From NCBI GenBank assembly GCA_963710335.1, contig CAVQAA010000025.1, positions 296,993 through 320,992 on the forward strand: 24,000 nucleotides of DNA. Direction: 5' to 3'. The DNA is from an uncultured Spirochaetota bacterium (lineage in GTDB: Bacteria > Spirochaetota > Spirochaetia > SZUA-6 > Fen-1364). Positions 8,101-24,000 of the stretch are shown here, piece after piece (the first letter of the stretch is position 1; each line of letters starts with the position of its first letter). The translations under genes and the position numbers were made by a program. Under the pieces are notes generated by a model. The model was not told the origin of the DNA. It saw nothing but the letters and a program-made list of their open reading frames with translations, and ran no database searches.

Positions 8101-8224
8101 TATAAAAAGGATTCTCATAATTCCCGCCGCATTCCATTCTCAAGAAGCCTATCTTTTCCTTGCGTTCGCGGCTGACACTGACGTTGTCTTGAAGGGGATT
8201 TTTTCCAAGCTGCTGATCCGATGA
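5183..8224 (+). CDS. Hypothetical two-TM sensor-like membrane protein with an acidic repeat-containing cytoplasmic region (1013 aa)
   Basis: Long ORF with consistent GC3 coding bias. TM1 is near the N-terminus (VAISLLISIVLFAGFSVLAF). An extracytoplasmic segment of about 270 aa follows. TM2 is at nt 6074-6136 (GLLLGTFFLTVFLIVYLLINL). Then come a juxtamembrane helix, an (EEAEAV)n repeat, a long E/D/L/P-rich region and a non-acidic C-terminal domain. I recognise no family. Confidence 0.85.
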   Translation: MRQSLKVAISLLISIVLFAGFSVLAFSGLFDILQASFFLPRVEQGYQQQLAVLGDRIEKYHAANLERFSTLARKDFVSASFETNLPAEVMSQWADAIANLKVSAVRVLAPDGQKIVFSSIASDAKDQRPDRFAYRNYGEVDQAVPSISIVLGAGDQPRLFIDGNQGRFLYLVPVYQAASRGGGAQLFKGTAVFYVDSLDLLRDLQLMPQVPVTSVVLVQNEGVLLNFTAADPKPVTAALQATWQAHAGSSSFTSPLALTREGGRTGSFLSFSLRLTQGGVASLLVDASVFEMTDLMKGLLLGTFFLTVFLIVYLLINLRSDPLDVLRQRVKRFQVQLITELVEGPGGTDWSRWRRELESRQGEITWQIQRGIGRVSRRQKPLVDEYMSKSWNEILDLLSRRAETPQPPVVGALDISRLESLIRSALQNESFKRSLPARETRAARGETSEATSAAQGPGIEAVEPAEEAEAVEEAEAVEEAEAVEEAEAVEEAEAVEEAEAVEEAEAVEEAEAVEEAEAVEEAEAVEAPAVSDKAEATQEEPELAQELEEVPSFDEGGVAEFGLPQHAKVGAVDSGRMQGEGALSARATREPLMAPAATEPETFLMDSPDEVLEELEALPDIRPLPPLPFEEGLELLPAAENEESTARLTDEGALMRDGESEESGASDYPDLKRLEELSDVEELSDVDEIEDVEFDMTTLTTVEPGNLPEEQELGELETIDEAMAAVEPGSTNELSLEDKQAELTKLLANGAIKTWTIGEMLHLVEESRSTIVMEDGVFRIKEEVYGPGNHEDKQFAPEASRNGGLREIAQEVVSHMSAQGQDGSQSGIGDIISDAAVFDFPAEMPRQSGTRDEELSGDREKTSPIKLTRSGIDYDDFLSNYPRSISQTQQMKSLVEVSRRVAAVSAGMLVKGQSGYSLELTVGLNEKSRQQLHFDPRDPFNSFFADRKAVAVDRNPSDLQTWKVLIDQEDLRYIKRILIIPAAFHSQEAYLFLAFAADTDVVLKGIFSKLLIR
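6560..6757 (+). repeat. 18-bp in-frame tandem repeat: 10 perfect-period copies (6578-6757) encoding EEAEAV, plus one degenerate leading copy (6560-6577, EAVEPA)
   Basis: Read directly: GAA GAR GCY GAG GCR GTN repeated head to tail. Every inter-copy difference is at a third codon position and is synonymous. Confidence 0.97.
7205..7258 (+). repeat. Three further in-frame 18-bp hexad units (EELSDV, EELSDV, DEIEDV)
   Basis: gaagagctttccgatgtg / gaggagctttccgatgtc / gacgagatcgaagacgtg. They have the same 6-aa period and the same acidic-acidic-x-x-x-Val pattern as the 6578-6757 array. Confidence 0.7.
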
Positions 8225-14090: not shown

Positions 14091-15465
14091 CGCACGGCCG
14101 GGCCGCCGCTCCCCGGCATCCCTTCCCCGAATCGCCATCCTGGGAAGACCAAATGTCGGCAAATCATCTCTTTTCAATGCGTTGCTCGGCCGACGCCGGT
14201 CGATCACCCACTCGAATCCGGGGGTGACGCGGGACCCCGTGGAAGAGGCCTGCACCCTCGGCGGCATCCGTGCGCTCCTCATTGACACCGGCGGATTTGC
14301 CCCCGAGGGGGAGGCCATTGACCGCGTTGTTTCCGGGCGGAGCCTTGCAACCGCCCGCGCAGCGGATCTCATCCTGCTGGTGCTGGACGCGGCTGAGACG
14401 ACTCCGGAGGATGAGGACTTCATGAGCCTGCTTCGCCCGCTCTCGGACAAGCTCCTCCTGGTGGTCAATAAAGTGGACACCCCGGACAGGGATTCCCTTG
14501 TCTGGAACGCGCATTCCTATGGTTTCCCGCGGGTCATCGGCGTATCCGCGGCGCATGGCAGGAACCTGCCCGAAATCAAGGAGCTGATTGCAGCTCTGCT
14601 GGAGGAGCGGGCTTCCGAGCTCAAGACAACGGACCGGGAGACCCCGGAACCGCAGGGCGAAGCCGTGCGGATTGCCATCCTGGGTAAGCCCAACACCGGG
14701 AAGTCCAGCCTTGCGAACCGGCTCACCGGGGATGATCGCTCCATCGTGTCGCCGGTGCCGGGCACCACCCGGGACGTGGTGCAGGCGCGGTTCGAGCACC
14801 GGGGCCGGGCATTCGACATCCTGGACACCGCCGGCATCAGACGCAAGAGCCGGGTGACGGATGCAGTGGAGTACTATTCCGTCAATCGCGCCATTGAGAG
14901 CATTGAGCGGGCCGACCTGGTGTTCCTGATGATCGATGCCACGCAAGGGCTGGTTGACCAGGACAAGAAGATCGCCGGGCAAGCCCTTAAAGAAGGCCGG
15001 GGGATCGTGATTGTGCCCAGCAAGTGGGACCTCCTGGGGAAAGCGCCGGACCTCGTTGCCCGGGTGAGCGACCAGCTGAGATTCCAGTTCCCCGTGCTCG
15101 GCTTTGCGCCGATTGCGCCAATTTCCTCTCTTACCGGGTACGGCATTCGCGCGCTCCTTGACACGGCGATCTCCGTGTGGGACCAGCTCCATCGGCGTGT
15201 CACCACCGGGCGCCTGAACTCCGCCCTGGAATCGTGGATGGAACACTATCCCCTTCCCGGGCGCGGGAAGTACAAGATCCGGTTTGCAACCCAGGTCGGC
15301 TCCAATCCCATACAGTTCGTGATCTTCGTGAACCGGCCCCTCGGATTCCCCGCCTCATACATCTCGTATCTGGAAAACTGCATCCGCAGGGACCTGGGAT
15401 TCCCCCAGGTCCCCATCGCCGTCGAGGTCCGAAAAAGCGGGAAGACCGACCCGCGCGGCAGGTGA
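14071..15465 (+). CDS. der: Ribosome-associated GTPase Der/EngA (tandem GTPase domains plus KH-like domain)
   Basis: Two P-loops (GRPNVGKSSLFN and GKPNTGKSSLAN), with DTGG/DTAG and NKVD/SKWD motifs. TTG 14071 is the only plausible in-frame start upstream of the first P-loop and is preceded by GGAGGAG at 14060-14066. It overlaps ptsI by 20 nt. Confidence 0.9.
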   Translation: MISSRGNARPGRRSPASLPRIAILGRPNVGKSSLFNALLGRRRSITHSNPGVTRDPVEEACTLGGIRALLIDTGGFAPEGEAIDRVVSGRSLATARAADLILLVLDAAETTPEDEDFMSLLRPLSDKLLLVVNKVDTPDRDSLVWNAHSYGFPRVIGVSAAHGRNLPEIKELIAALLEERASELKTTDRETPEPQGEAVRIAILGKPNTGKSSLANRLTGDDRSIVSPVPGTTRDVVQARFEHRGRAFDILDTAGIRRKSRVTDAVEYYSVNRAIESIERADLVFLMIDATQGLVDQDKKIAGQALKEGRGIVIVPSKWDLLGKAPDLVARVSDQLRFQFPVLGFAPIAPISSLTGYGIRALLDTAISVWDQLHRRVTTGRLNSALESWMEHYPLPGRGKYKIRFATQVGSNPIQFVIFVNRPLGFPASYISYLENCIRRDLGFPQVPIAVEVRKSGKTDPRGR

Positions 15466-15470
15466 GGCCG

Positions 15471-17228
15471 ATGAAATCGTGGAGCATCGGCGAGGTGGCG
15501 CGGTTTCTCGGGGTCAAGCCGTATATCCTGCGCTACTGGGAAGGCGAGCTTCCCCTGCTCTCGCCGCGCAAGGGGTTATCGGGGCGGCGCGAGTATTCCA
15601 GCCGCGAAATACGCCTCCTCATGAGGTTCCGCTACCTCCTCCATGAGAAAAAGTTCACGATCGAAGGGGCCAAGCGGCGAATGTGGGAGGAGCTGGGAGC
15701 CGGAGAGCAGAATGTGGCTGCGCGGTTCGACGAGGTGCGGGCCGACCTTGTCGAGGCTCTCATGACGCTTCAGCGCGGCAGGGCAGCGGGCCCGGAAGGG
15801 CCCTCTGACGAGGGTTGCAACAGCAACGTCGAGGGAAAAAAAATGACGGAAAAGGAGATCAGGGAGGCGTGCGAGGCAAACGGGCAGGAGCACTTGTTTG
15901 CTCATTGGGACGCCCGGCCCGCCGCTATGAAACAGAAGCTGCTTTCCGATCTTGCCGCACTGGACTTCGGCAGGCTGGATGAGCTTCGGAGCCGACTGCG
16001 CGAGCCGCCGGCAGCGACCGTGACTGACGTTCCCGTCCCTGCCCCTTACATTCCAATCTCCCTCAGCGCATCAGACCATGCCGCGCGGGAAATCGGTGAG
16101 GACCTGATCCGGCGCGGGAAGACGGCTATTCTCACCGTGGCGGGCGGGCAGGGGTCACGCCTGGGTTTTGACGGGCCCAAGGGAATGTTCCCCATAAGCC
16201 CCCTGCGCAAGCTGACCCTTTTTGCCCTTCACGCGGAGAAGCTCCTTGCGGCCCGCAGGTGGTACGGGGCGGAGATACCCTGGCTCATCATGACCAGCCC
16301 GTCCAACCGTGCTGAAACGGAGGAGTACTTCCGCCGGGAGGACTGGTTCGGGCTGGGCAGCGGATCTGTCCTCCTTTTCTCCCAGGGGACCCTGCCATCA
16401 CTGTCCCCGCAGGGCAGCCTCCTGATGGCGCCGGACGGCGGGCTTTTTGTCAACCCGAACGGTCATGGAGGCGTCGTCAGCGCTCTTACGGACTCGAGGG
16501 TCATTCAGGAAATCCGTGACAGGGGAATTGAAGAGCTGTTCCATTTCCAGGTGGACAACCCCCTGGTGCGCGTGCCGGACCCCGTTTTTCTGGGGTTTCA
16601 CCGCAAGGAAAGCTCGGAGATCTCGTCGAAAGTCATCGAAAAGGCCTATCCCGAAGAGAAGCTCGGCGTCATTGCCCTTGTTCGGGAAAAGCCATGCGTG
16701 ATCGAGTATTCCGACTTCGACGAGCAGTTGATGAGTTCCCGGGGGCCGGACGGGAAGCTTGCTTTCCCCCAGGGCTCGATTGCCATCCACGTGCTCAACG
16801 TGGATTTCCTGTCCCGAACCGGCAGGTCGCTTCCTTTGCATATTGCGCGGAAGAAGGTGAAGGCCCTCAAACCCACGCACGAAGGAACCGAAATTGGAGA
16901 GGAAGACGCCGTGAAGATGGAGATGTTCATTTTCGACGCGATCCCGATGGCGGGAAAGGCGATCTTCTTCGAGACGGAGCGCATCGAGGAGTTCGCGCCG
17001 CTGAAGAATCGCGAGGGTCTTGATTCCATCGAGACGTGCGTTCGCGGACAGATCGAGAAGGCCGCCAGATGGCTGTCCGCATGCGGTGTCGAGGTGCCGC
17101 GGGACGGCAATGGCAGGTCTCTGCATGCCATCGAGATCAGCGCGCTCTTTGCCTGGGACCGGCAGGTGCTGGCTGCGAAACGCGGGAGCCTCAAGGACAG
17201 GATTGATGAAGACACGCTTCTTGCATAG
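15471..17228 (+). CDS. Single ORF fusing an N-terminal MerR-family HTH domain (about aa 1-124) to a UDPGP-family UDP-sugar / UDP-GlcNAc pyrophosphorylase-like enzyme (from internal ATG 15843)
   Basis: MerR HTH: WSIGEVARFLGVKPYILRYWEGE...GRREYSSREIRLLMRFRYLL. Enzyme part: GQEHLFAHWD..., LTVAGGQGSRLGFDGPKGMFPI, NPNGHGG, FQVDNPL. There is no stop between the two parts. The internal ATG 15843 has its own GAGGG SD. The track start at 15177 is an extension inside der. Confidence 0.8.
   Translation: MKSWSIGEVARFLGVKPYILRYWEGELPLLSPRKGLSGRREYSSREIRLLMRFRYLLHEKKFTIEGAKRRMWEELGAGEQNVAARFDEVRADLVEALMTLQRGRAAGPEGPSDEGCNSNVEGKKMTEKEIREACEANGQEHLFAHWDARPAAMKQKLLSDLAALDFGRLDELRSRLREPPAATVTDVPVPAPYIPISLSASDHAAREIGEDLIRRGKTAILTVAGGQGSRLGFDGPKGMFPISPLRKLTLFALHAEKLLAARRWYGAEIPWLIMTSPSNRAETEEYFRREDWFGLGSGSVLLFSQGTLPSLSPQGSLLMAPDGGLFVNPNGHGGVVSALTDSRVIQEIRDRGIEELFHFQVDNPLVRVPDPVFLGFHRKESSEISSKVIEKAYPEEKLGVIALVREKPCVIEYSDFDEQLMSSRGPDGKLAFPQGSIAIHVLNVDFLSRTGRSLPLHIARKKVKALKPTHEGTEIGEEDAVKMEMFIFDAIPMAGKAIFFETERIEEFAPLKNREGLDSIETCVRGQIEKAARWLSACGVEVPRDGNGRSLHAIEISALFAWDRQVLAAKRGSLKDRIDEDTLLA
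15836..15843 (+). repeat. A8 homopolymer at the MerR/pyrophosphorylase junction
   Basis: Read directly: GAGGG AAAAAAAA TGACGG. The last A is the first base of the internal ATG. With 7 A the upstream frame would end at TGA, overlapping that ATG as ATGA. Confidence 0.95.
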
Positions 17229-18522
17229 GGTCTGCCTCTTCTCACTCGCGCTTGCCCTGGGGATTGCCCCGCTTGAGGCATGGACGCCCGTCAGCGATGA
17301 GACGGCGCTGGGAACCGTGCCCGAGAACTGGGAAGCCCGGACCCTTTTGCGGGACGTCATTTTCGCGTCCGCGCGGGATGCCGCCGCCTCGCCGCGGAGA
17401 ATCGTGCCACAGGTCGAAGCCGGGGACGATGTCTCTTTCACGGCCCAGGTTCAGGATGATGCGGTATATCTGGTGTTTGCCAACAGGAAAGGAAACTCCT
17501 TCCCCCTGGCGGATGCCGGAACCTTCATCATCAAGAGGAGCCTTCGCGACGGAAAGTTCCTCCAGGCCAAGATATTTATCCAGAACGACCCCGGCTGCTT
17601 CCTGAGGCTTTTCCCCGAGGGCGACAGGACCGCCATGGACATCGTGCTCTTCAATGAGAGCTTCCAGACCCACGTCATCCTGCCGTCCCCGTTCCAGGAC
17701 CTTCTTACCTCCTCTTTTGCCCGGATCGTGGACCTTTGCAGGCCCGCTGTAGACTGGTCTCTTGTCATGGCCCCTTCCCAGGGCCCCGGTGACGAACGCC
17801 TCGAAAGAATGGTGAGTGCCTTGCGCAGCCAACTGGGGAAGCTGCGGGACATGGATGATGGGGCGATGGATGCAAGCGGCAGGCTTGTCTTCATTGCCTC
17901 CGGGAAGCCGGCCCCCTCCAGGCTGGGCGGCTTCAACTGCTCGGGATTCGCGAAGTGGGTGATTGACGGCTTTTACTTTCCCCTGACCGGTTCCTTCACG
18001 GATATCGATGTTCTTCGATCAAGGGATTCCGACCTCCTGGGCAAAGCGTGGAGCGCCAGGTTCGAGGAGGAGCAGGATCCCTACTTCGGGCTTGACTGGT
18101 CGCGCGGCCTTGCGCGGGCAATCGCAAATGCCCGGACCGGCGAGATGCCAGGCCCCGAGTCACTCGACGTGACCGAAAGCGAGCGGTTTGCGCACGTGAA
18201 GGACGTTGGCTACAGGGTGGAAAGCCTGCCGGGGCTGCTGTACTTCCTGGCGCGCGAGCGCCCCGGAACGATGTACCTCGGTTCCGTGAACGCGCGCTCG
18301 AAAGGCGTTCCGCAGGGCGCCAGCATGCTGCTCCGCCAGCACCATCATGTCGTCGTGCTTCTGCCCTTCTTCGACAAGGCCGGGGATTTTCGCCCGGTTG
18401 TCATGGAAAGGAACAAGGAGACGAGCGTCCCGTCCCTTATCAGGCGATACGCCGGTGAATACATAAACCTCGTGAGAGTCGATTCCACCGGCCAGTTTGC
18501 CCCTCCCGAGATCCCGCGGTAA
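17206..18522 (+). CDS. Secreted hypothetical protein (438 aa) with a possible papain-fold / NlpC-P60-like Cys motif
   Basis: ATG 17206 gives a signal peptide (MKTRFLHRVCLFSLALALGIAPLEA|WTP). It overlaps the upstream gene by 23 nt. GGFNCSGFAKWVIDG (Cys codon 17938-17940) resembles the DCSGF catalytic motif, and a QHHHVVVL His cluster lies at 18340-18348. The function call is speculative. Confidence 0.78.
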   Translation: MKTRFLHRVCLFSLALALGIAPLEAWTPVSDETALGTVPENWEARTLLRDVIFASARDAAASPRRIVPQVEAGDDVSFTAQVQDDAVYLVFANRKGNSFPLADAGTFIIKRSLRDGKFLQAKIFIQNDPGCFLRLFPEGDRTAMDIVLFNESFQTHVILPSPFQDLLTSSFARIVDLCRPAVDWSLVMAPSQGPGDERLERMVSALRSQLGKLRDMDDGAMDASGRLVFIASGKPAPSRLGGFNCSGFAKWVIDGFYFPLTGSFTDIDVLRSRDSDLLGKAWSARFEEEQDPYFGLDWSRGLARAIANARTGEMPGPESLDVTESERFAHVKDVGYRVESLPGLLYFLARERPGTMYLGSVNARSKGVPQGASMLLRQHHHVVVLLPFFDKAGDFRPVVMERNKETSVPSLIRRYAGEYINLVRVDSTGQFAPPEIPR

Positions 18523-18558: not shown

Positions 18559-18587
18559 TTGACAGGTCTTCCCGATAGGTTTACTAT
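18559..18587 (+). promoter_or_regulatory. Candidate sigma70-type promoter for the giant coiled-coil gene: TTGACA (18559-18564), 17 bp spacer, TACTAT (18582-18587)
   Basis: Perfect -35, 17-bp spacer and a TAnnnT -10. It is followed by GGAGG (18602-18606) and ATG 18613. The track's TTG start at 18559 is the -35 hexamer itself. Confidence 0.6.
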
Positions 18588-18612
18588 TGATAAAACCTCT
18601 GGGAGGGGGACA

Positions 18613-21600
18613 ATGCTACCAATTTTCTCGATTGGTAATCTGATTACCTTCCTTGCTGTCCTTCTAATCCTGGTCATCATTCGAGCGCTGGATCGCAACA
18701 ACAGATCGCTGGAAAAGCTCAAAAGGTTCAGCGACAAAATCGCGGCAAACATCTCGGCCCTGGCTGAGGAGAAGACCGCCCAGATCGGCGCGCTCGTCGC
18801 CGGCCTCCAGGGAAGCCTTGCCGCCGGCAAGGAGCTGATGTCCAGGGCTCGAACCGTGGAAGAAGCCCTCCAGGCCAGGTCTGGGGAGGTCGAGGGGATT
18901 CGCAAGAGACTCCTTGATTATGAGAAGAGCTTCAGCGACATCACCTCGGTGTCGACGCGCCTTGACCAGGCTCTTAGAAAGCTGCGCGCGGAAGCGGAGG
19001 TCGCTGACTCCGTTGGCAAGAAAATCGGCGAAACCGCGGGGCGCCTCGAGAAACTGGAGAAGAGGCTTCCTGAGATTGAAGCAGGCTCAAGCGCTCGCGC
19101 ACGGCAGGCCCTGGAGGCGGCCCGAGCGGAGGTTGTTTCTGTCGTAGAGACCAGGGTCGGCGCGCTGGCTTCCAACGTCAACGCATCGGAAAAGAAGCTG
19201 AAGGATTTTTCCGCCTATATGGCGCACCTTGAAGCGCGGGAGGAACAGGCGGAGAAGGAAAGGGCGGCATACCTCTCCCGGTCCCTTGAGGCATTCGAGG
19301 CAGACCTGAACGCCAGGCTTTCGAAGGCGCGCGAGCGCGGGGAAACCCTGGAGGGGGAGGTCTTCGGCCGTCTGGCAACCAGGATCAAAGAGGATGAGGC
19401 CGCTTTTGCCCGGAGCATCGAGGCAATCGAGGCGCGGCTGGCCGATTATCAGGGCGATGTCGACTACCGGATCAAGGCTCTGGAGGAGTCCAGCGATATC
19501 GAGGCCCTGCGCGTTTCTCTGGCTGAAAGCCTGCAGAAGATGGCGGCAGGCGTGCGCGTGGAGATGAAGGAGACTGCCGCAAGTCTCGTTGCGGGATGGC
19601 AGGCTGAAATCACCGCGGCCGCAAGCGCCAGGGAAAAGCTCCACGCCGGCCTTGCTGAAGTGCACGCCGGGCTGGAAGAGCTCAAGACCCGCGCCTACCA
19701 GGACGTGGAGAAGGGCCTGGCCGTCTTCGAAGATGAGTTCTTTGCCGACCTGCGCCAGAGGGCGGAGCAGGCCCTGGACAAGGTGGAGGGTTTCGAAGGT
19801 GACCTGAAGGCGCGGATATCCTCCTCAGATGAATCGGTGAAGACGCTGGGGGAGAAGATGTCCTCCTTCCAGGTTGACGTTGCGGACAGGATGAAGAAGA
19901 TGGCCGCAGACCTTGTTGCCGGTTGGCAGACTGAAACTGCCTCCGCGGCCAGCGCCCGCAAACAGATCAGCGCGGAGCTGGAAAAGCTCAAGACAAACGC
20001 ATATCAGGACGTGGAAAAAGGACTTGCTGTTTTCGAGGACCAGTTCTTTGCAGACCTGCGCCAGAGGGCGGAGCAGGCGCTGGACAAGGTGAAAGGCTTT
20101 GAAGGCGACTTGAAGGCTCGGATATCCTCCTCAGATGAGTCGGTGAAGACGCTGGGTGAGAAGATGTCCTCCTTCGAAGCGGACGTGGACGGCAGGATGA
20201 AAAAACTGGCCACGGACCTGGTTGCGGGGTGGCAGATCGAAACCACCGCCGCGGCAAGCGCCCGGCAGCAGATCAGCGCGGACCTGGAAGAGCTCAGGGC
20301 AGGCGCCCACCAGGAGGTGGAAAAAGGACTTGCTGTTTTCGAGGACCAGTTCTTCGCGGACCTGCGCCAGCGGGCCGCCCAGGCGCTGGACAGGTACCAA
20401 CTCTGGCAGGCGGATGTCGAGAAACGGATGGAAGCATTCGAGGGCGAGTTGAAGTCCCGGCTTGCTTCCTCTGACGATGCCATGCAGGGCCTGAGGGAGG
20501 CTTTGCGCGTCGAGGTTGAGAAAACGCGCAAAGACTCGTCACTGGCAATCGAGAAGGAAACCGCCGGTCTCAGAGAGACGCTGGATGCCGCCGTACGCAA
20601 GGGTCAGCGGGAAATCGAGTCGAGGCTCCGGGAGATGTCTGCTGAGCTGGAGACCGGCCGCAAAGACATGGGGGACGTGCTGGACGCCTCCCGAGCGGAA
20701 GTCGTGGCCTGGGAAGGCCGGGTGCGGCAACAGCTCTCGGAGACGGAGGTTTCCGTCGCGGAGAAGATCTCTCGGCTTGCCTCCGAGGCAGAGTCTTCCA
20801 TCGGCGTTGTGCGGGACGAGTTCACATCCCAGAAAGACGACATGCTCGCTGTCTTCACCCAGGAAAGGAATGCCATCAAGGCGGAGCTGAAGGACCTGGG
20901 GGAGAGGATCTCGGGATTCGAGGGCGACTTGAAGCGCTCTGCCGAGACGGCGGTGCAAGGCATTCGGATCCAGATGGAGAAGGCCGGCAAGGGGACGGCG
21001 GCGGCCCTGGAGAAGGAGCTTGCCGCAGTGAAGGAAGCGCTGGAGACCAGGAGCGCGTCCATGCACGGGGAGATCGAGAACCGGATGCAGGAGCTTGCCG
21101 CGCTGCTGGAGGCCGGCCGCAAGGAGGCAGCAGCCCAGGCGGAGTCGGCGCTCGGCGCCATCCGCGGCAGCTTCGCCTCGCAGAGGGACGAGCTGATGAC
21201 GGCTTCCGCGGCGGAGCGGGAGGCCCTGAAGAAGCAGATTGCCGAAATGGCGGAGAGGGTCGGTTCCTTCGATGCGGAGCTGTCGCGCACCACGGACTCC
21301 ACCATGGAGGCCATCCAGGTGCTGAGGGATGCCCTGCACGAGGAAGTGGAAAAGGCGCGCGGGGAGTCGTCCCTTGCCATGGAGAAGGACCTTGCGTCCC
21401 TGCGGGAGTCCCTGGACGGCGCGTCGCACCGGATGCAGAAAGAGATAGAATCGCGGATGAGCAGCATCACCGCGGAAATGGAAACGAACAGGAAAGAAGT
21501 GTCGCAGCTGCTGGAAGCATCCAGCACGTACGTCACCGCGTGGGAAACAAAGACGCGGCAGCGGATGTCCGAGTCAGAGGCTGCAATCGCCAGGAGGGTT

Positions 21601-22899
21601 GCTGCCATGGAATCCGAAGCCGGTTCGTCGGTGGAAGCGGTGCAGGAAGCGTTCGCGGCCCAGAAAGAGGAGCTGATTGCGGCTTCCAGCGCGGAGAACG
21701 CGGAGTTCAAGAGCCAGCTCGCCGAGATGGGGCAGAAGATTTCCGCATTGAAGGCCGAGCTTTCCCGGTCTTCCGAGGAGACACTGGAGAACCTGCGTAC
21801 GGAAGCGGAGACCCTCCAGGCGGAAAGCCAGAAGCGGATCCGGGATTTCCAGGCGGACGTCGAGACGAGGATAAAGGAACACCGGCAGCTCATGACGGAA
21901 AGCCGCGAAAAAGCCGAAGGAATGCAGGAAAAGCTGGTGGCAAAGATCGATGAGAGCTACCGCCTCATGTCGACGAACCTCGCCGACATCGAAAAGCGGG
22001 TGAAGTCGTTCACCGCGCAGACGCGTCTTTTCGAGCGAGCGGATTCCCTGAAGGTCGGACTGGAAGGCAACATCGAGGAGATGAAGAAAGAGATCGCGAA
22101 GCTGGGGGCGGAGAAGGCGGAGCTTGCGGAAACCGAGCTGCAGCTGGCACGGACAAAGAAGCTGGCGGACGAGGTTTCCCAGAAGCTGTCCCGGTTCCTT
22201 GCGGAGAAGCGGCGCATCGACGAGATGGAAGGCGAGTTCAAGAAGCTCCTCACTTTGTCACGGGACATCGATCTGAAAGTGAACACCCTTTCGGGCAGCC
22301 ATGACGCTCTCCAGCAGATCCAGGCCAAGGTTCGCGAGTTCGAGGAGATGGGGAAAGTCGTGGAGACCGGCGTGGAGAGGCTGGACAAGAAGCAGCAGAT
22401 CATCTCCGTCACCGCGGAAGGCGTGGACAAGAACTTCCAGCGCCTGGAGACCATGGAGAAGACCATCAAGGAGACGGACCAGGAAACCGCGGCCCTGGAG
22501 GCAAAGGTGAGGTCCCTCATGACCGAGTACGAGACGCTGGCCGGACGCAAAAAGGACGCGGAAAGCGCCATGGAGATTTCCGGGAGGCTCACGGCCGTCA
22601 TCGAGGATCTGGAGCAGAGGCTGGAGAAAGCCCAGAACTCCCGGGAATGGCTGGCCAGGACTGAGACGCGCTTCGAGGAGATTGGCCGCCAGGCGCAGGA
22701 GCAGGTGCGCCTTCTTGAGAGCATCGTGAAGTCTGAAACCAAGAAGGAGAAAGGGGACAAGGGCGCCCCTCCCATGGACAAGCGGGAAACCGTGGTCAAG
22801 CTCTCACATCAGGGCTGGTCGGTGCAGGAGATCTCCCGGGTGACCCAGCTCAGCCGCGGCGAGGTGGAGCTGATCCTGGAGCTTGCTCCCAAGGTTTGA
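18613..22899 (+). CDS. Giant (1428 aa) N-terminally membrane-anchored protein, helical by composition, built from repeats, with a C-terminal HTH-like motif
   Basis: MLPIFSIGNLITFLAVLLILVIIRALDRNNRS is a single TM with a positive-inside flank. About 1350 aa of E/A/K/R/L-rich sequence with recurring modules follows. The protein ends in KLSHQGWSVQEISRVTQLSRGEVELILELAPKV. I recognise no family. Coiled-coil content is inferred from composition, not computed. Confidence 0.88.
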   Translation: MLPIFSIGNLITFLAVLLILVIIRALDRNNRSLEKLKRFSDKIAANISALAEEKTAQIGALVAGLQGSLAAGKELMSRARTVEEALQARSGEVEGIRKRLLDYEKSFSDITSVSTRLDQALRKLRAEAEVADSVGKKIGETAGRLEKLEKRLPEIEAGSSARARQALEAARAEVVSVVETRVGALASNVNASEKKLKDFSAYMAHLEAREEQAEKERAAYLSRSLEAFEADLNARLSKARERGETLEGEVFGRLATRIKEDEAAFARSIEAIEARLADYQGDVDYRIKALEESSDIEALRVSLAESLQKMAAGVRVEMKETAASLVAGWQAEITAAASAREKLHAGLAEVHAGLEELKTRAYQDVEKGLAVFEDEFFADLRQRAEQALDKVEGFEGDLKARISSSDESVKTLGEKMSSFQVDVADRMKKMAADLVAGWQTETASAASARKQISAELEKLKTNAYQDVEKGLAVFEDQFFADLRQRAEQALDKVKGFEGDLKARISSSDESVKTLGEKMSSFEADVDGRMKKLATDLVAGWQIETTAAASARQQISADLEELRAGAHQEVEKGLAVFEDQFFADLRQRAAQALDRYQLWQADVEKRMEAFEGELKSRLASSDDAMQGLREALRVEVEKTRKDSSLAIEKETAGLRETLDAAVRKGQREIESRLREMSAELETGRKDMGDVLDASRAEVVAWEGRVRQQLSETEVSVAEKISRLASEAESSIGVVRDEFTSQKDDMLAVFTQERNAIKAELKDLGERISGFEGDLKRSAETAVQGIRIQMEKAGKGTAAALEKELAAVKEALETRSASMHGEIENRMQELAALLEAGRKEAAAQAESALGAIRGSFASQRDELMTASAAEREALKKQIAEMAERVGSFDAELSRTTDSTMEAIQVLRDALHEEVEKARGESSLAMEKDLASLRESLDGASHRMQKEIESRMSSITAEMETNRKEVSQLLEASSTYVTAWETKTRQRMSESEAAIARRVAAMESEAGSSVEAVQEAFAAQKEELIAASSAENAEFKSQLAEMGQKISALKAELSRSSEETLENLRTEAETLQAESQKRIRDFQADVETRIKEHRQLMTESREKAEGMQEKLVAKIDESYRLMSTNLADIEKRVKSFTAQTRLFERADSLKVGLEGNIEEMKKEIAKLGAEKAELAETELQLARTKKLADEVSQKLSRFLAEKRRIDEMEGEFKKLLTLSRDIDLKVNTLSGSHDALQQIQAKVREFEEMGKVVETGVERLDKKQQIISVTAEGVDKNFQRLETMEKTIKETDQETAALEAKVRSLMTEYETLAGRKKDAESAMEISGRLTAVIEDLEQRLEKAQNSREWLARTETRFEEIGRQAQEQVRLLESIVKSETKKEKGDKGAPPMDKRETVVKLSHQGWSVQEISRVTQLSRGEVELILELAPKV
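19561..20400 (+). repeat. Long in-frame tandem repeat, about 2.7 units of 327/306 bp (109/102 aa)
   Basis: The LVAGWQ codons recur at 19585, 19912 and 20218. The units share VEKGLAVFEDxFFADLRQRAEQALDKVxGFEGDLKARISSSDESVKTLGEKMSSF. There is a 38-nt identical patch at 20011 and 20317. Confidence 0.9.
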
Positions 22900-22903
22900 T
22901 GCG

Positions 22904-24000
22904 GTGGAAACCTCTTCCCGCGTCGCCCTGATCGCATGCCCGGACTATGACCGTGAGCGCGTCCGCGCTGCGGTCCGCCGGGGCCTCGGCTTGCTGGGCC
23001 GCGGCGCTCTCCCCGGGCCCCGGGACCTGAACGGCAGATACCTTCTTCTCAAGCCGAACCTGCTGCGTCCGGCGCCCGCGGAGCGGGGCGTTACCACTCA
23101 CCCCTCGGTGTTCTCCGCCGTGGCCGGCTTCCTGAAGGACGGCGGTTTTGCGCTTGCCTACGGAGACTCGCCCAACGGAATGTTCAGCCCAATCAGCGCG
23201 GCTCGAGCCAGCGGCATCCAGGCGGAAGCCGAGGCGCTGGCAATACCCATGGCTGATTTCGACGTCGGTGTCGACGTCAGCTTTCCCCGCGGAGTACTGG
23301 ACCGGCGGTTTTCCGTGGCGAAAGGGGCCGTGGAGGCGGGCGGAATCATCAGCCTGCCCCGGCTGAAGACTCATGGGCTGACCACGATGACGGGCGCGCT
23401 CAAGAACACATTCGGCCTCATCCCTGGCGGCCGCAAGGGGGAGTACCACGTCACGCATCCCGACGTGGAAAGTTTTTCCCGGATGATCGTGGACCTGAAC
23501 GGTGCCGTGGCTCCCCGCCTGGTGGTCATGGATGCAATTACGGTCATGGAGGGCAACGGCCCTGCCAATGGACGGCTTCGAAACGTCGGCCTTCTGATCA
23601 TCACGACGGACCCGGTTGCCGCCGATGCGGTGGGGTGCAGGATCATGGGGATAGATCCGCTGGCGATCCCTTTCATCCGCATGGCGGATGAAGCCGGCCT
23701 GGGGAACGCCGCGGAAGGGAAGATCGAGCTGCTGGGTGATCCCCTGGATGGGTACATATGCGCGGACCTGGATGTGCGCGCCCGGCCCCTCGGGCAGAAT
23801 GTGCCCGGCTTCCTGTTTCGCATCGCAAAGGACCTCATCGTCTCCAAGCCGGTCATCGACGCAGAGGTGTGCTCACGCTGCGGTCAATGCGTCGAGGCTT
23901 GCCCTACCAGCCCCAAGTCCCTGCAATGGGGTGACGCGGGACCGCTTCACAGCGTGCCGCGCTACCTGTACTCGACATGCATCCGGTGCTACTGTTGCCA
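22904..24000 (+). CDS. DUF362-domain protein with a C-terminal 4Fe-4S ferredoxin-type domain (3' end outside window)
   Basis: Not in the ORF track because it is open-ended. GTG 22904 (AAGG 9 nt upstream) gives METSSRVALIACPDYDRERV...LLLKPNLL...THP...GIISLPRLKTHGLTTMTGALKNTFG...MDAITVMEGNGP, typical of DUF362. Then comes CSRCGQCVEACP (about 23864-23905) and the start of a second Cys cluster (CIRCYCC). Confidence 0.85.
   Translation, partial: METSSRVALIACPDYDRERVRAAVRRGLGLLGRGALPGPRDLNGRYLLLKPNLLRPAPAERGVTTHPSVFSAVAGFLKDGGFALAYGDSPNGMFSPISAARASGIQAEAEALAIPMADFDVGVDVSFPRGVLDRRFSVAKGAVEAGGIISLPRLKTHGLTTMTGALKNTFGLIPGGRKGEYHVTHPDVESFSRMIVDLNGAVAPRLVVMDAITVMEGNGPANGRLRNVGLLIITTDPVAADAVGCRIMGIDPLAIPFIRMADEAGLGNAAEGKIELLGDPLDGYICADLDVRARPLGQNVPGFLFRIAKDLIVSKPVIDAEVCSRCGQCVEACPTSPKSLQWGDAGPLHSVPRYLYSTCIRCYCC

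What the first reader, a model, noticed from the sequence alone, without database searches (positions are those of the whole stretch)
18613..22899. 1428-aa membrane-tethered repeat protein with no recognisable family
The architecture is a single N-terminal TM helix, then about 1350 aa of uninterrupted E/A/K/R/L-rich sequence that looks helical or coiled-coil, then a small HTH-like C-terminus. It has its own consensus promoter and a strong SD. From about 19560 to 21830 it is built of modules of different length. Each module ends in a recurring motif: GFEGDLKARISSSDE, FEGELKSRLASSDD, GFEGDLKRSAET, SFDAELSRTTDS, LKAELSRSSEE. This suggests stepwise expansion of an ancestral unit. Positive-inside topology puts the bulk in the cytoplasm. 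That is compatible with a long spacer or scaffold reaching from the membrane, but this is speculative. The module composition is reminiscent of apolipoprotein-like amphipathic helices.
Basis: partly seen in the sequence, partly recalled or inferred. Interest (0 to 1): 0.7.

Follow-up and report, generated by a model that had tools for sequence, protein, structure and literature searches.

The report
Spirochaete membrane-anchored coiled-coil rod protein (SpiroCoCo)
This is a real 1428-residue gene for a membrane-anchored helical rod protein that belongs to a named but unstudied spirochaete family, and its small C-terminal domain most resembles the part of the Vibrio/Pseudomonas protein FipA that docks the flagellum-placement GTPase FlhF, which gives a testable idea of what it does.

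Summary
ORF 18613-22899 (+) encodes 1428 aa with one N-terminal TM helix, about 1350 aa of helix, internal modules and a C-terminal three-helix HTH.

The claim "no recognisable family" is wrong. NCBIfam SpiroCoCo_N (126 bits, cutoff 75) and SpiroCoCo_C (308 bits, cutoff 125) both match. The window comes from a Spirochaetia MAG.

The family is large: at least 548 species genomes and 860 clusters at 50% identity. All members keep the N-terminal anchor and the extreme C-terminal domain. Length runs from 363 to 2718 aa because the middle varies.

This copy equals a 946-aa orthologue plus two extra 102-aa units and one extra 277-aa module, all tandem duplications. The ends show heptad periodicity; the middle shows a coherent 3.64-residue periodicity, like apolipoproteins. 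AlphaFold gives helices of 84-169 residues, not a globule.

The C-terminal domain's best Pfam matches are DUF6115 (above threshold) and DUF2802, the FipA domain (below threshold). By coordinate mapping, FipA's three fully conserved residues fall on invariant G1401, E1417 and L1420.

My reading is a membrane tether or spacer that presents a FipA-like partner-binding domain, with FlhF as the leading candidate. That step is inferred. Gene context is housekeeping, not flagellar. It is an ordinary member of a known, uncharacterised family.

The parts
18559..18587 (+). Sigma-70-like promoter TTGACA-17 nt-TACTAT
   Evidence: 10 of 12 matches. The region has 2 such sites against 0.4 expected. This is a consensus match only.
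18601..18609 (+). Shine-Dalgarno-like GGGAGGGGG, 3 nt before the ATG
   Evidence: Read directly from the sequence.
18613..22899 (+). CDS of the 1428-aa SpiroCoCo family coiled-coil protein (stop codon included)
   Evidence: ORF. (NCBIfam NF047514 and NF047515 above cutoff). (a 1428-aa orthologue at 88% identity; 97 complete orthologues).
18622..18684 (+). Single transmembrane helix, aa 4-24 (N-terminus out, C-terminus in by the positive-inside rule)
   Evidence: this is the only segment with 19-residue mean hydropathy above 1.6. Six Arg/Lys follow within 15 residues.
18682..18735 (+). Juxtamembrane motif RALDRNNRSLEKLKRFSD (aa 24-41), the most conserved N-terminal stretch of the family
   Evidence: R-x-LD-x-x-NRSLEK-x-KR-F is conserved in at least 90% of 103 aligned N-termini, including the 392-aa short forms.
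18640..19272 (+). SpiroCoCo_N / LA_3659-family domain (aa 10-220). The heptad-type periodicity (3.46-3.5) is clearest at about aa 60-130.
   Evidence: 126.3 bits, cutoffs 75 and 36; periodicity; aa 4-152 align to aa 1-149 of short form P0086, E=1e-21.
19606..20523 (+). Three tandem 102-aa units (about aa 332-637). The DNA array is 19671-20392 with period 306.
   Evidence: up to 95% aa identity between units; 946-aa orthologues have one unit; 204 extra aa here.
20410..21837 (+). Duplicated 277-aa module: copy 1 at about aa 600-876, copy 2 from aa 877. Similarity is traceable to about aa 1075, where this part ends; a full 277-aa second copy would reach about aa 1153.
   Evidence: shift-277 matches at 35-53% identity; 946- to 987-aa orthologues lack exactly 277 aa here.
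20170..21252 (+). Region modelled by AlphaFold (aa 520-880): helices at aa 521-689, 693-790 and 796-879
   Evidence: mean pLDDT 79.6, pTM 0.24. Breaks fall at Gly-rich aa 681-694 and 791-795.
21943..22878 (+). SpiroCoCo_C domain (aa 1111-1422): heptad coiled coil, linker and HTH
   Evidence: 307.9 bits, cutoff 125, profile 1-313 of 313; period 3.38-3.5; aa 1218-1425 align to short form P0086, E=9e-34.
22747..22773 (+). Flexible linker (aa 1379-1387, KGDKGAPPM)
   Evidence: residues 39-47 of the 88-residue model sit in the lowest-confidence stretch. pLDDT is below 50 for 39-45, and no helix is assigned to 41-47.
22774..22884 (+). Three-helix HTH-like domain (aa 1388-1424) of DUF6115/DUF2802 type. 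Invariant G1401 (22813-22815), E1417 (22861-22863) and L1420 (22870-22872).
   Evidence: pLDDT above 90. DUF6115 in 36/36 and DUF2802 in 35/36 family members; invariant columns. FipA G110, E126 and L129.

Best explanation
**What it is.** The gene encodes an ordinary member of the spirochaete SpiroCoCo family. It is a bitopic inner-membrane protein whose first 3 residues face the periplasm and whose remaining roughly 1400 residues are cytoplasmic.

**Anatomy.**
- A conserved TM helix and juxtamembrane heptad coiled coil (aa 1-150).
- A variable middle (about aa 150-1215) of long alpha-helices. It is built from tandemly duplicated modules with a near-straight 3.64-residue hydrophobic stripe.
- A conserved C-terminal heptad coiled coil (aa 1215-1378).
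- A 9-residue flexible linker.
- A three-helix HTH-like domain at the extreme C-terminus.

**Proposed mechanism.** The protein forms a membrane-anchored rod, probably a parallel dimer. The middle is a length-adjustable spacer. The C-terminal domain is the working end. That domain is the same type as the DUF2802 domain of FipA, so it most likely captures a cytoplasmic protein rather than DNA. FlhF is the leading candidate. The partner would then be held at the membrane at sites where periplasmic flagella are assembled.

**Shown:** family membership, topology signals, helicity and periodicity, the duplication history, the conserved ends, and the Pfam relationship of the C-terminal domain.

**Inferred:** dimerisation, the spacer role, protein rather than DNA binding, and FlhF as partner.

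**My estimates:** family and architecture about 0.95; tether with a partner-binding C-terminal domain about 0.6; FlhF as the partner about 0.25-0.3.
For: **Family.** SpiroCoCo_C E=7e-92 over the full profile, and SpiroCoCo_N E=1e-36. 548 species genomes encode a relative, and the best 80 are all Spirochaetota. There are 860 cluster representatives, with the C-terminal match always at the extreme C-terminus.

**Conserved ends, dispensable middle.** The syntenic 392-aa orthologue P0086 aligns only to aa 4-152 and aa 1218-1425. Family lengths run from 363 to 2718 aa. The difference from 946 to 1428 aa is explained by 2 x 102 aa plus 277 aa.

**Helical rod.** Periodicity analysis. AlphaFold helices of 84-169 residues at pLDDT about 80. 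The hydrophobic face is narrow, about +/-60 degrees.

**C-terminal domain.** AlphaFold gives helix, disordered linker, then a tri-helical bundle. DUF6115 matches 36/36 members (best 2.6e-8; this protein 32.8 bits, cutoff 27). DUF2802 matches 35/36 (best 5.3e-8). The best generic HTH family, HTH_23, matches 29/36 (best 3e-5).

**Parallels with FipA (PMC11620751).**
- FipA has periplasmic aa 1-5, a TM at 6-28, a coiled region, and then a cytoplasmic DUF2802 domain.
- It self-interacts and must be membrane-anchored to work.
- G110 and L129 are required for FlhF binding.
- The G-to-L spacing is 19 in both Vibrio (110/129) and P. putida (104/123). G1401 to L1420 is also 19.
- Mapping through the Pfam coordinates puts G110, E126 and L129 on G1401, E1417 and L1420. 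These are invariant or nearly invariant in the family.

**Protein rather than DNA binding.** The helix equivalent to a recognition helix is SRGEVELILEL. It is acidic and hydrophobic and is invariant, which does not suit DNA contact (sequence; inference).

**FlhF is available.** Spirochaetes encode FlhF, per the supplement of PMC11620751.
Against: - DUF2802 scores below Pfam's gathering threshold for this protein: 16.7-24.5 bits against 33.5.
- No FipA sequence could be obtained, so there is no profile-profile or reciprocal test. The residue mapping assumes that the Vibrio DUF2802 match is full-length and ungapped.
- fipA lies next to the flhF/flhG/fliA-che operon. This gene never does so in 76 loci. 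Its neighbours are PtsI, Der, UDPGP, an unknown secreted protein, a TPR/ExbB/ExbD/TonB-like cluster, a HAD hydrolase and grpE-dnaK-dnaJ.
- The FipA authors report no FipA homologue in spirochaetes.
- The fold is a generic tri-helical HTH. The nearest PDB folds are resolvase, Pax and NarL, and none reaches E below 0.1.
- Why a FipA-like tether would need 100-250 nm of helix is unexplained.
Confidence: 0.4

Rival explanations
1. It is a general membrane-anchored scaffold or ruler whose C-terminal domain binds a partner unrelated to flagella. Candidates are cell division or cell-shape factors in the manner of EzrA, or cytoplasmic partners of the adjacent Tol/Ton-like envelope cluster. The resemblance to FipA would then reflect only a shared small domain.
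For: - There is conserved synteny with a TPR / OMP-like / ExbB / ExbD / TonB-like cluster and a HAD hydrolase upstream, all on the same strand. No flagellar gene is nearby.
- EzrA has the same gross plan of an N-terminal TM followed by long helical repeats. Pfam EzrA gave weak hits in 2 of 34 family members.
- One database entry is named "cytoskeletal protein".
Against: - This protein has no Pfam EzrA match.
- The neighbouring genes are housekeeping genes of unrelated functions, so the synteny says little.
- This reading does not explain why DUF2802 and DUF6115 beat generic HTH families by about three orders of magnitude.
Confidence: 0.3
2. It is a nucleoid-membrane tether. The C-terminal HTH binds DNA and the rod links the chromosome to the inner membrane, like RacA/DivIVA-type anchoring.
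For: - The C-terminal domain has a tri-helical HTH fold. Its nearest solved relatives are DNA binders: resolvase, Pax and NarL/DosR.
- JGI auto-annotations call fragments "NarL/FixJ" or "sigma-24".
Against: - The third helix, at the recognition position, is the invariant GEVELILE. It has three Glu and no conserved basic or polar DNA-contacting residue.
- The domain is roughly net neutral to acidic (sequence).
- All PDB matches are non-significant (E of 0.16 or more).
- The closest sequence families, DUF2802 and DUF6115, are not known DNA binders. In FipA the corresponding residues mediate protein binding.
Confidence: 0.08
3. It is a membrane-surface or lipid-binding protein. The 3.64-period amphipathic helices of the middle region would lie on the inner leaflet, like apolipoprotein, perilipin or synuclein 11-mers. 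They would sense or shape membrane curvature in a thin helical cell.
For: - Pfam Apolipoprotein matches six stretches at 74.9 bits. The family is precomputed on most orthologues.
- The middle shows a coherent 3.64 period rather than 3.5.
- The protein is already tethered to the membrane.
Against: - The Pfam score is below the gathering threshold of 90.
- The hydrophobic face is narrow (about +/-60 degrees) and aliphatic. Lys/Arg is not clearly enriched at the interface as in class A helices.
- The middle is entirely absent from the syntenic 392-aa orthologue, so it cannot carry the core function.
Confidence: 0.07
4. Its function is linked to the DnaK chaperone system, because it sits directly upstream of grpE-dnaK-dnaJ, where hrcA sits in many bacteria.
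For: GrpE, DnaK and DnaJ follow on the same strand in 49 of 76 loci, with GrpE as the very next gene in 24. Intergenic gaps are 28-289 nt.
Against: - In this window the next gene is a DUF362/4Fe-4S protein, not grpE.
- No CIRCE element is found.
- There is no similarity to HrcA or to co-chaperones.
- Adjacency to universally conserved operons is common without any functional link.
Confidence: 0.05

Closest known systems
NCBIfam SpiroCoCo family coiled-coil protein (NF047514 SpiroCoCo_N / NF047516 LA_3659 family; NF047515 SpiroCoCo_C)
   Same: Both domain models match above their cutoffs. The C model is covered end to end. The source is a spirochaete. The plan is the same: conserved ends and a variable coiled-coil middle.
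   Different: Nothing essential differs. At 1428 aa it is longer than the modal 946-1100 aa because of two extra 102-aa units and one extra 277-aa module. The family has a name but no described function; I found no paper on it.
FipA (Pfam DUF2802, PF10975), the FlhF interaction partner of polar-flagellated gammaproteobacteria (Arroyo-Perez et al., eLife 2024, PMC11620751)
   Same: - A very short periplasmic N-terminus, one TM helix, a cytoplasmic coiled region, then a small C-terminal domain.
- DUF2802 is one of the two best Pfam matches of the C-terminal domain in 35 of 36 family members.
- FipA's three fully conserved residues map onto invariant G1401, E1417 and L1420, with the same 16- and 19-residue spacing.
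- The host phylum uses FlhF.
   Different: - It is about nine times longer: about 1350 aa of helix against about 30 aa.
- The DUF2802 score is below Pfam's threshold.
- The gene is not next to flagellar genes.
- No FlhF interaction has been shown.
- The FipA paper lists spirochaetes as lacking FipA.
Pfam DUF6115 (PF19610), an uncharacterised family
   Same: This is the only Pfam family passed at the gathering threshold: 28.0 bits for the whole protein and 31.6-32.8 bits for the C-terminal segment, against a cutoff of 27. The match covers profile positions 38-133 of 134, that is the last coiled-coil helix, the linker and the HTH.
   Different: The DUF6115 profile is 134 positions long, so it describes a small protein or domain, whereas here it is the tail of a 1428-aa protein. 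The function of DUF6115 is unknown. My guess that B. subtilis SwrB belongs to it could not be checked.
EzrA (Pfam PF06160), a membrane-anchored division regulator of Firmicutes
   Same: An N-terminal TM anchor followed by a long cytoplasmic body of helical repeats about 100 aa long (EzrA's plan is from general knowledge). Two of 34 family members gave weak EzrA hits.
   Different: This protein has no EzrA match. There is no evidence of spectrin-like three-helix bundles; AlphaFold gives helices of 84-169 residues. EzrA has no C-terminal HTH.
Apolipoprotein A1/A4/E (PF01442)
   Same: Sub-threshold matches in six stretches. The same kind of near-11/3 hydrophobic periodicity, 3.64, runs through long E/A/K/R/L-rich helices.
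   Different: The score is below the gathering threshold (74.9 against 90). The protein is cytoplasmic and membrane-anchored, not secreted. Helices are not punctuated by proline (5 Pro in 1428 aa). The hydrophobic face is narrower.
SMC / Rad50 / SbcC ("chromosome segregation ATPase", as JGI auto-annotates homologues)
   Same: Weak hits to the coiled-coil arms only (E 1e-9 to 1e-12, 35-45 bits).
   Different: Scores are an order of magnitude below the cutoffs (567-1000 bits). There are no ATPase head domains and no hinge. The automatic names are coiled-coil artefacts.

Membership tests
NCBIfam SpiroCoCo | N-terminal domain model NF047514 above its cutoff (75 bits) | tested here: met
   126.3 bits, E=1.2e-36, aa 10-220.
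NCBIfam SpiroCoCo | C-terminal domain model NF047515 above its cutoff (125 bits) | tested here: met
   307.9 bits, E=7.2e-92, aa 1111-1422, profile 1-313 of 313.
NCBIfam SpiroCoCo | Spirochaete origin | tested here: met
   The best 80 of 548 related loci are all Spirochaetota. The closest is a Spirochaetia MAG with 96% identity in the C-terminal domain.
NCBIfam SpiroCoCo | Long helical or coiled-coil region between the conserved ends | tested here: met
   Periodicity of 3.46-3.64 well above shuffled controls. AlphaFold helices of 84-169 residues.
Pfam DUF6115 (PF19610) | Score at or above the gathering threshold (27 bits) | tested here: met
   28.0 bits for the whole protein. 31.6 and 32.8 bits for C-terminal segments. 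36 of 36 family members match.
FipA / Pfam DUF2802 (PF10975) | DUF2802 score at or above the gathering threshold (33.5 bits) | tested here: not met
   16.7, 18.3 and 24.5 bits depending on the segment scanned. 35 of 36 family members match at E of 0.1 or less, best 5.3e-8.
FipA / Pfam DUF2802 (PF10975) | Single N-terminal TM with a very short periplasmic N-terminus and a cytoplasmic C-terminal part | tested here: met
   TM at aa 4-24, 3 residues before it, and 6 Arg/Lys just after it. This is a sequence prediction only; FipA's topology was mapped experimentally.
FipA / Pfam DUF2802 (PF10975) | The three residues fully conserved in FipA (G110, E126, L129 in Vibrio) | tested here: met
   G1401, E1417 and L1420 have spacings of 16 and 19, as in FipA. 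They are invariant or nearly invariant in the family. They were mapped through the Pfam profile coordinates. The mapping assumes an ungapped, full-length Vibrio match.
FipA / Pfam DUF2802 (PF10975) | Gene immediately downstream of the flhA-flhF-flhG-fliA-che operon | tested here: not met
   No flagellar or chemotaxis gene lies within about 10 kb in the window or in 76 related loci.
FipA / Pfam DUF2802 (PF10975) | Direct interaction with FlhF and an effect on FlhF localisation | not testable with these tools
   Needs two-hybrid or pull-down assays and microscopy.
FipA / Pfam DUF2802 (PF10975) | Found only in genomes that encode FlhF and FlhG | not tested
   Spirochaetes in general encode FlhF (supplement of PMC11620751). 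The genomes holding this family could not be searched for flhF.
Apolipoprotein A1/A4/E (PF01442) | Score at or above the gathering threshold (90 bits) | tested here: not met
   74.9 bits in six stretches.
SMC / Rad50 | ATPase head domains and a score above the model cutoffs | tested here: not met
   16-45 bits against cutoffs of 567-1087. Matches cover coiled-coil arms only.
DNA-binding HTH regulators (LuxR/NarL, resolvase, Pax type) | Significant sequence or fold match, and a basic or polar recognition helix | tested here: inconclusive
   The fold is a tri-helical HTH. PDB matches have E of 0.16 or more. HTH_23 scores 13-17 bits against a cutoff of 24.6. The third helix is the acidic, invariant GEVELILE.

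The most novel reading that the evidence does not exclude
SpiroCoCo is the missing spirochaete counterpart of FipA. It would be a membrane-anchored landmark whose C-terminal DUF2802/DUF6115-type domain binds FlhF and fixes where and how many periplasmic flagella are built. Its variable rod, 363-2718 aa across species, would act as a length-tunable spacer. If so, TM-plus-coil-plus-mini-HTH proteins in Gammaproteobacteria (DUF2802), in the lineages that carry DUF6115, and in Spirochaetota would form one ancient family of FlhF partners. That would contradict the published view that FipA is confined to polar-flagellated gammaproteobacteria.
Probability: 0.25. Interest if true: 0.75.

Novelty: new member of a known kind. 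Interest (0 to 1): 0.45.

Why it matters
How FlhF finds its site is an open question outside the monotrichous gammaproteobacteria. A 2025 review states that landmarking in other flagellation patterns "remains unclear" (PMC12826062). In spirochaetes FlhF and FlhG control the number and arrangement of periplasmic flagella, which determine cell shape, motility and virulence in Borrelia, Treponema and Leptospira.

This work yields a conserved, phylum-wide membrane protein carrying a FipA-like domain with the FlhF-binding residues intact. That is a concrete candidate which can be tested with existing genetics and cryo-ET.

Independently of function, the family is a clear natural example of protein length evolving by tandem duplication of long helical modules between two fixed ends. 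It could serve as a natural "molecular ruler" series.

There is also a practical point. Homologues are widely mis-annotated as "chromosome segregation ATPase" or "SbcCD". They are also often mis-called, truncated or replaced by antisense ORFs in MAGs.

Tried and rejected
- **Fetching FipA or DUF6115 proteins by sequence search.** I searched with the C-terminal 88-aa profile. It returned only fragments of SpiroCoCo proteins. Hits in every search were no longer than about 1.7-1.9 times the query, and the 27 weakest hits were not listed. So no FipA alignment could be built and no hhalign test was run.
- **PDB sequence search with the C-terminal profile.** No FipA-like entry appeared. The best hit is a 185-residue chain named "CAP REPEAT" (8vd6).
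- **NCBIfam scan of the C-terminal segments at E up to 10.** There was no FipA or SwrB model hit.
- **Literature searches.** Searches for SpiroCoCo, LA_3659, DUF6115 and PF19610 found nothing. Searches for FipA together with spirochaetes found only the FipA paper and a review.
- **The idea that B. subtilis SwrB belongs to DUF6115.** SwrB is a single-pass membrane protein with a cytoplasmic C-terminal domain, required to raise flagellar hook number. The SwrB sequence was not obtainable, so the idea stays unverified.
- **Exact-sequence look-up of the window protein.** It is not on record.
- **SMC/Rad50 identity.** Rejected: the hits are to coiled-coil arms only.
- **CIRCE/HrcA-type regulation shared with grpE.** No CIRCE element was found in 24 loci.
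- **The recurring FEGDL-type motif as a helix-capping "module end".** Rejected: in the AlphaFold model it lies inside helices.

Full report
**1. The observation.**
- The ORF from ATG 18613 to the stop at 22897-22899 is intact and encodes 1428 aa.
- The alternative in-frame TTG at 18559 overlaps a TTGACA-17-TACTAT promoter-like site (18559-18587, 10/12). All orthologues start with M-x-FS-x-GN, like the ATG product. So 18613 is the start. It is preceded by GGGAGGGGG at 18601-18609.
- The only hydrophobic segment is aa 4-24. Three uncharged residues precede it and six Arg/Lys follow. The positive-inside rule therefore places about 1400 residues in the cytoplasm. This is a prediction.
- Composition is A 14%, E 14%, L 10%, S/R 8% and K 7.6%, with 5 Pro and no Cys.
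- The coding strand is purine-rich: GC skew +0.14 to +0.18 and AT skew up to +0.30 over 19-23 kb.
The spacings are 102, 114, 159, 117 and 161 aa.
- The core pattern occurs 8 times against 0.06 expected.

**2. Repeats and how the protein grew.**
- TRF finds a 306-nt tandem array at 19671-20392.
- At protein level there are three 102-aa units (about aa 332-637, up to 95% identical). A 277-aa module is present twice: about aa 600-876, and again from aa 877, with similarity traceable to about aa 1075.
- A full-length search returned 117 homologues. Of these, 97 are complete at both ends, with lengths of 888-1754 aa. The most common length is 946 aa, and one 1428-aa protein is 88% identical.
- Global alignments to the 946-aa orthologues give 61% identity over aligned columns. 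The window protein carries 204 extra residues within aa 385-597, equal to two 102-aa units. It also carries 277 extra residues within aa 737-1060. 946 + 204 + 277 = 1427.
- Across one representative per 50% cluster, the family has 860 members at E of 1e-3 or less, with lengths from 363 to 2718 aa. The conserved C-terminal stretch always ends at the last residues.

**3. It has a family.**
- NCBIfam SpiroCoCo_C matches aa 1111-1422 over the entire 313-position profile (307.9 bits, cutoff 125).
- SpiroCoCo_N (also listed as the LA_3659 family) matches aa 10-220 (126.3 bits, cutoff 75).
- A scan of one genome per species found 548 genomes encoding a relative. The best 80 are all Spirochaetota: Spirochaetia MAGs, Marispirochaeta and Sediminispirochaeta. 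The closest, a peat-bog Spirochaetia MAG, is 96% identical in the C-terminal domain.
- I found no paper that mentions SpiroCoCo, LA_3659 or DUF6115.
- The family is therefore named by curators but uncharacterised. Automatic names such as "chromosome segregation ATPase" or "SbcCD" reflect weak coiled-coil hits only.

**4. What is conserved.**
- A 392-aa orthologue (P0086) sits in the same gene order: Der, TPR protein, ExbB, ExbD, HAD hydrolase, this gene, then GrpE-DnaK-DnaJ.
- It aligns only to aa 4-152 (E=1e-21) and aa 1218-1425 (E=9e-34) of the window protein.
- The roughly 1065 residues in between are absent. They are therefore not needed for the core function in that lineage.
- The most conserved N-terminal feature is the juxtamembrane motif R-x-LD-x-x-NRSLEK-x-KR-F.
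- At the C-terminus, REWLARTETR and GEVELILE are invariant or nearly so.

**5. Structure.**
- Fourier analysis of hydrophobic residues shows heptad-like periods in the conserved ends: 3.46-3.5 in the N-terminal part, clearest around aa 60-130, and 3.38-3.5 over aa 1110-1370.
- The variable middle shows a long-range coherent period of 3.64. Power is 6.1 for aa 330-640 and 8.4 for aa 640-1110, against a 95th percentile of about 1.2 in shuffles.
- One 102-aa unit equals 28 turns at this period.
- This near-11/3 periodicity explains the sub-threshold Pfam Apolipoprotein match (74.9 bits, cutoff 90).
- The hydrophobic face is narrow (about +/-60 degrees) and aliphatic. That fits a weakly supercoiled coiled coil or helical bundle at least as well as a lipid-binding helix.
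- AlphaFold on aa 520-880, with 25 aligned homologues, gives three helices of 169, 98 and 84 residues. Mean pLDDT is 79.6 and pTM 0.24. Breaks fall at Gly-rich aa 681-694 and 791-795.
- The protein is extended and helical, not globular.
- If fully extended, about 1350 helical residues would span roughly 200 nm (0.15 nm per residue; inference). That is comparable with the diameter of a thin spirochaete.

**6. The C-terminal domain.**
- AlphaFold on the last 88 aa, with 36 sequences, gives a long helix, a disordered linker (aa 1379-1387) and a compact three-helix bundle with pLDDT above 90.
- Foldseek finds only generic tri-helical HTH domains (resolvase, Pax, NarL/DosR). None has E below 0.1.
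- By sequence the picture is sharper. I scanned the C-terminal segments of 36 family members individually against Pfam:

| Pfam family | Members matched | Best E-value |
|---|---|---|
| DUF6115 | 36/36 | 2.6e-8 |
| DUF2802 | 35/36 | 5.3e-8 |
| HTH_23 (best generic HTH) | 29/36 | 3e-5 |
| HTH_7 | 16/36 | 6e-4 |

- For the window protein, DUF6115 passes its threshold (32.8 bits against 27). DUF2802 does not (24.5 bits against 33.5).

**7. Why DUF2802 matters.**
- DUF2802 is the domain of FipA, which was shown in Vibrio parahaemolyticus, Pseudomonas putida and Shewanella putrefaciens to bind FlhF. FipA helps recruit FlhF to the pole (PMC11620751).
- FipA has periplasmic residues 1-5, a TM helix at 6-28, a coiled region at 31-58 and DUF2802 at 68-135. 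It self-associates and is inactive without its TM helix.
- G110, E126 and L129 are 100% conserved. G110A and L129A abolish FlhF binding.
- The window protein has the same order of parts.
- The Pfam match aligns profile positions 36-66 to residues 54-84 of the 88-residue segment, without gaps. The Vibrio domain (68-135) is exactly the profile length (68).
- G110, E126 and L129 therefore correspond to profile positions 43, 59 and 62. These are G1401, E1417 and L1420, which are invariant or nearly invariant across the family.
- This mapping assumes an ungapped, full-length Vibrio match. I could not obtain a FipA sequence to verify it.
- The helix carrying E1417 and L1420 occupies the position of an HTH recognition helix. 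It reads SRGEVELILEL, which is acidic and hydrophobic. That argues for protein binding rather than DNA binding (inference).

**8. Evidence against a FipA-like role.**
- The FipA paper states that homologues are absent from spirochaetes. Its supplement lists Brachyspira, Leptospira, Borreliella, Spirochaeta, Salinispira and Oceanispirochaeta as FlhF-positive and FipA-negative.
- DUF2802 is below threshold here.
- Gene context is not flagellar. The window, from upstream to downstream, holds:
  - rplO, secY, rpsD, rpoA and rplQ;
  - an unknown 1013-aa protein;
  - rny, ymdB and an FtsJ-like methyltransferase;
  - a Germane-domain protein on the minus strand;
  - ptsI, der and a MerR/UDPGP ORF;
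  - an unknown 433-aa secreted protein;
  - this gene;
  - a DUF362/4Fe-4S protein.
- In 76 related loci, the recurrent neighbours are that unknown secreted protein, a TPR / OMP-like / ExbB / ExbD / TonB-like cluster and a HAD hydrolase upstream. GrpE-DnaK-DnaJ and a histidine kinase lie downstream.
- No CIRCE element lies before grpE.

**9. Conclusion.**
- The finding is a genuine but ordinary member of a large, curated, functionally unstudied spirochaete family.
- The best-supported description is a membrane-anchored helical rod with fixed ends and an evolutionarily elastic middle.
- The best available functional hypothesis is that its C-terminal FipA-type domain captures a cytoplasmic partner at the membrane, with FlhF as the leading candidate. 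I rate that specific step at about 0.25-0.3.
- Rivals, in order of my preference:
  - a scaffold for a non-flagellar partner;
  - a nucleoid tether;
  - a membrane-surface amphipathic protein;
  - a chaperone-linked role.

Noticed in passing
window 5183-8224 (+): A second large unknown protein (1013 aa) lies between rplQ and rny. It has a hydrophobic N-terminal segment and an E/A/L-rich composition. It has no Pfam hit and no similarity to the SpiroCoCo protein or to the TPR protein of related loci.
   Followed up: partly
window 17221-18522 (+): A 433-aa protein with a signal-peptide-like N-terminus and no Pfam match lies immediately upstream. Homologues recur on the same strand within a few genes upstream of the SpiroCoCo gene in 34 of 76 related loci.
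   Followed up: partly
window 15177-17228 (+): A MerR-type HTH (aa 103-169 of the ORF) and a UDP-sugar pyrophosphorylase domain (aa 314-613) lie in one uninterrupted reading frame. This is either a fusion or two genes with no stop between them. In related loci the UDPGP-like ORFs my rough ORF picker called are about 363 aa.
   Followed up: no
window 20604-21893 (-), 20539-21429 (-), 21957-22799 (-); locus L001 8254-9972 (-): Long antisense ORFs (up to 429 aa) run inside the gene. In the related MAG locus L001 the gene caller accepted a 572-aa ORF on the opposite strand, immediately upstream of the called gene, and called only the last 397 aa of the real gene. That assembly also has frameshifts (its HSP70 gene is split in three). 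Many database "homologues" of 180-550 aa are such fragments.
   Followed up: partly
proteins P0190 and P0195 (142 aa): These small proteins consist of two tandem copies of the same C-terminal mini-HTH (...GWSKEEIAKALRISPGEVELTLE...), with no TM helix and no coiled coil. So the domain also exists outside the SpiroCoCo architecture.
   Followed up: no
loci L003-L082; window 22883-24000: In most related genomes grpE-dnaK-dnaJ follows the SpiroCoCo gene on the same strand, where hrcA sits in many bacteria. In this window a DUF362/4Fe-4S gene follows instead; its ORF overlaps the stop codon by 17 nt as listed. No plus-strand terminator-like site follows the gene.
   Followed up: partly
PDB entry 8vd6: The best PDB sequence match of the C-terminal profile (E=7e-6) is a 185-residue chain named "CAP REPEAT". 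It is built of 33-residue units (RREVRELIEEGKTAEEIAEILGLSVDEIKELI) that resemble the mini-HTH.
   Followed up: no
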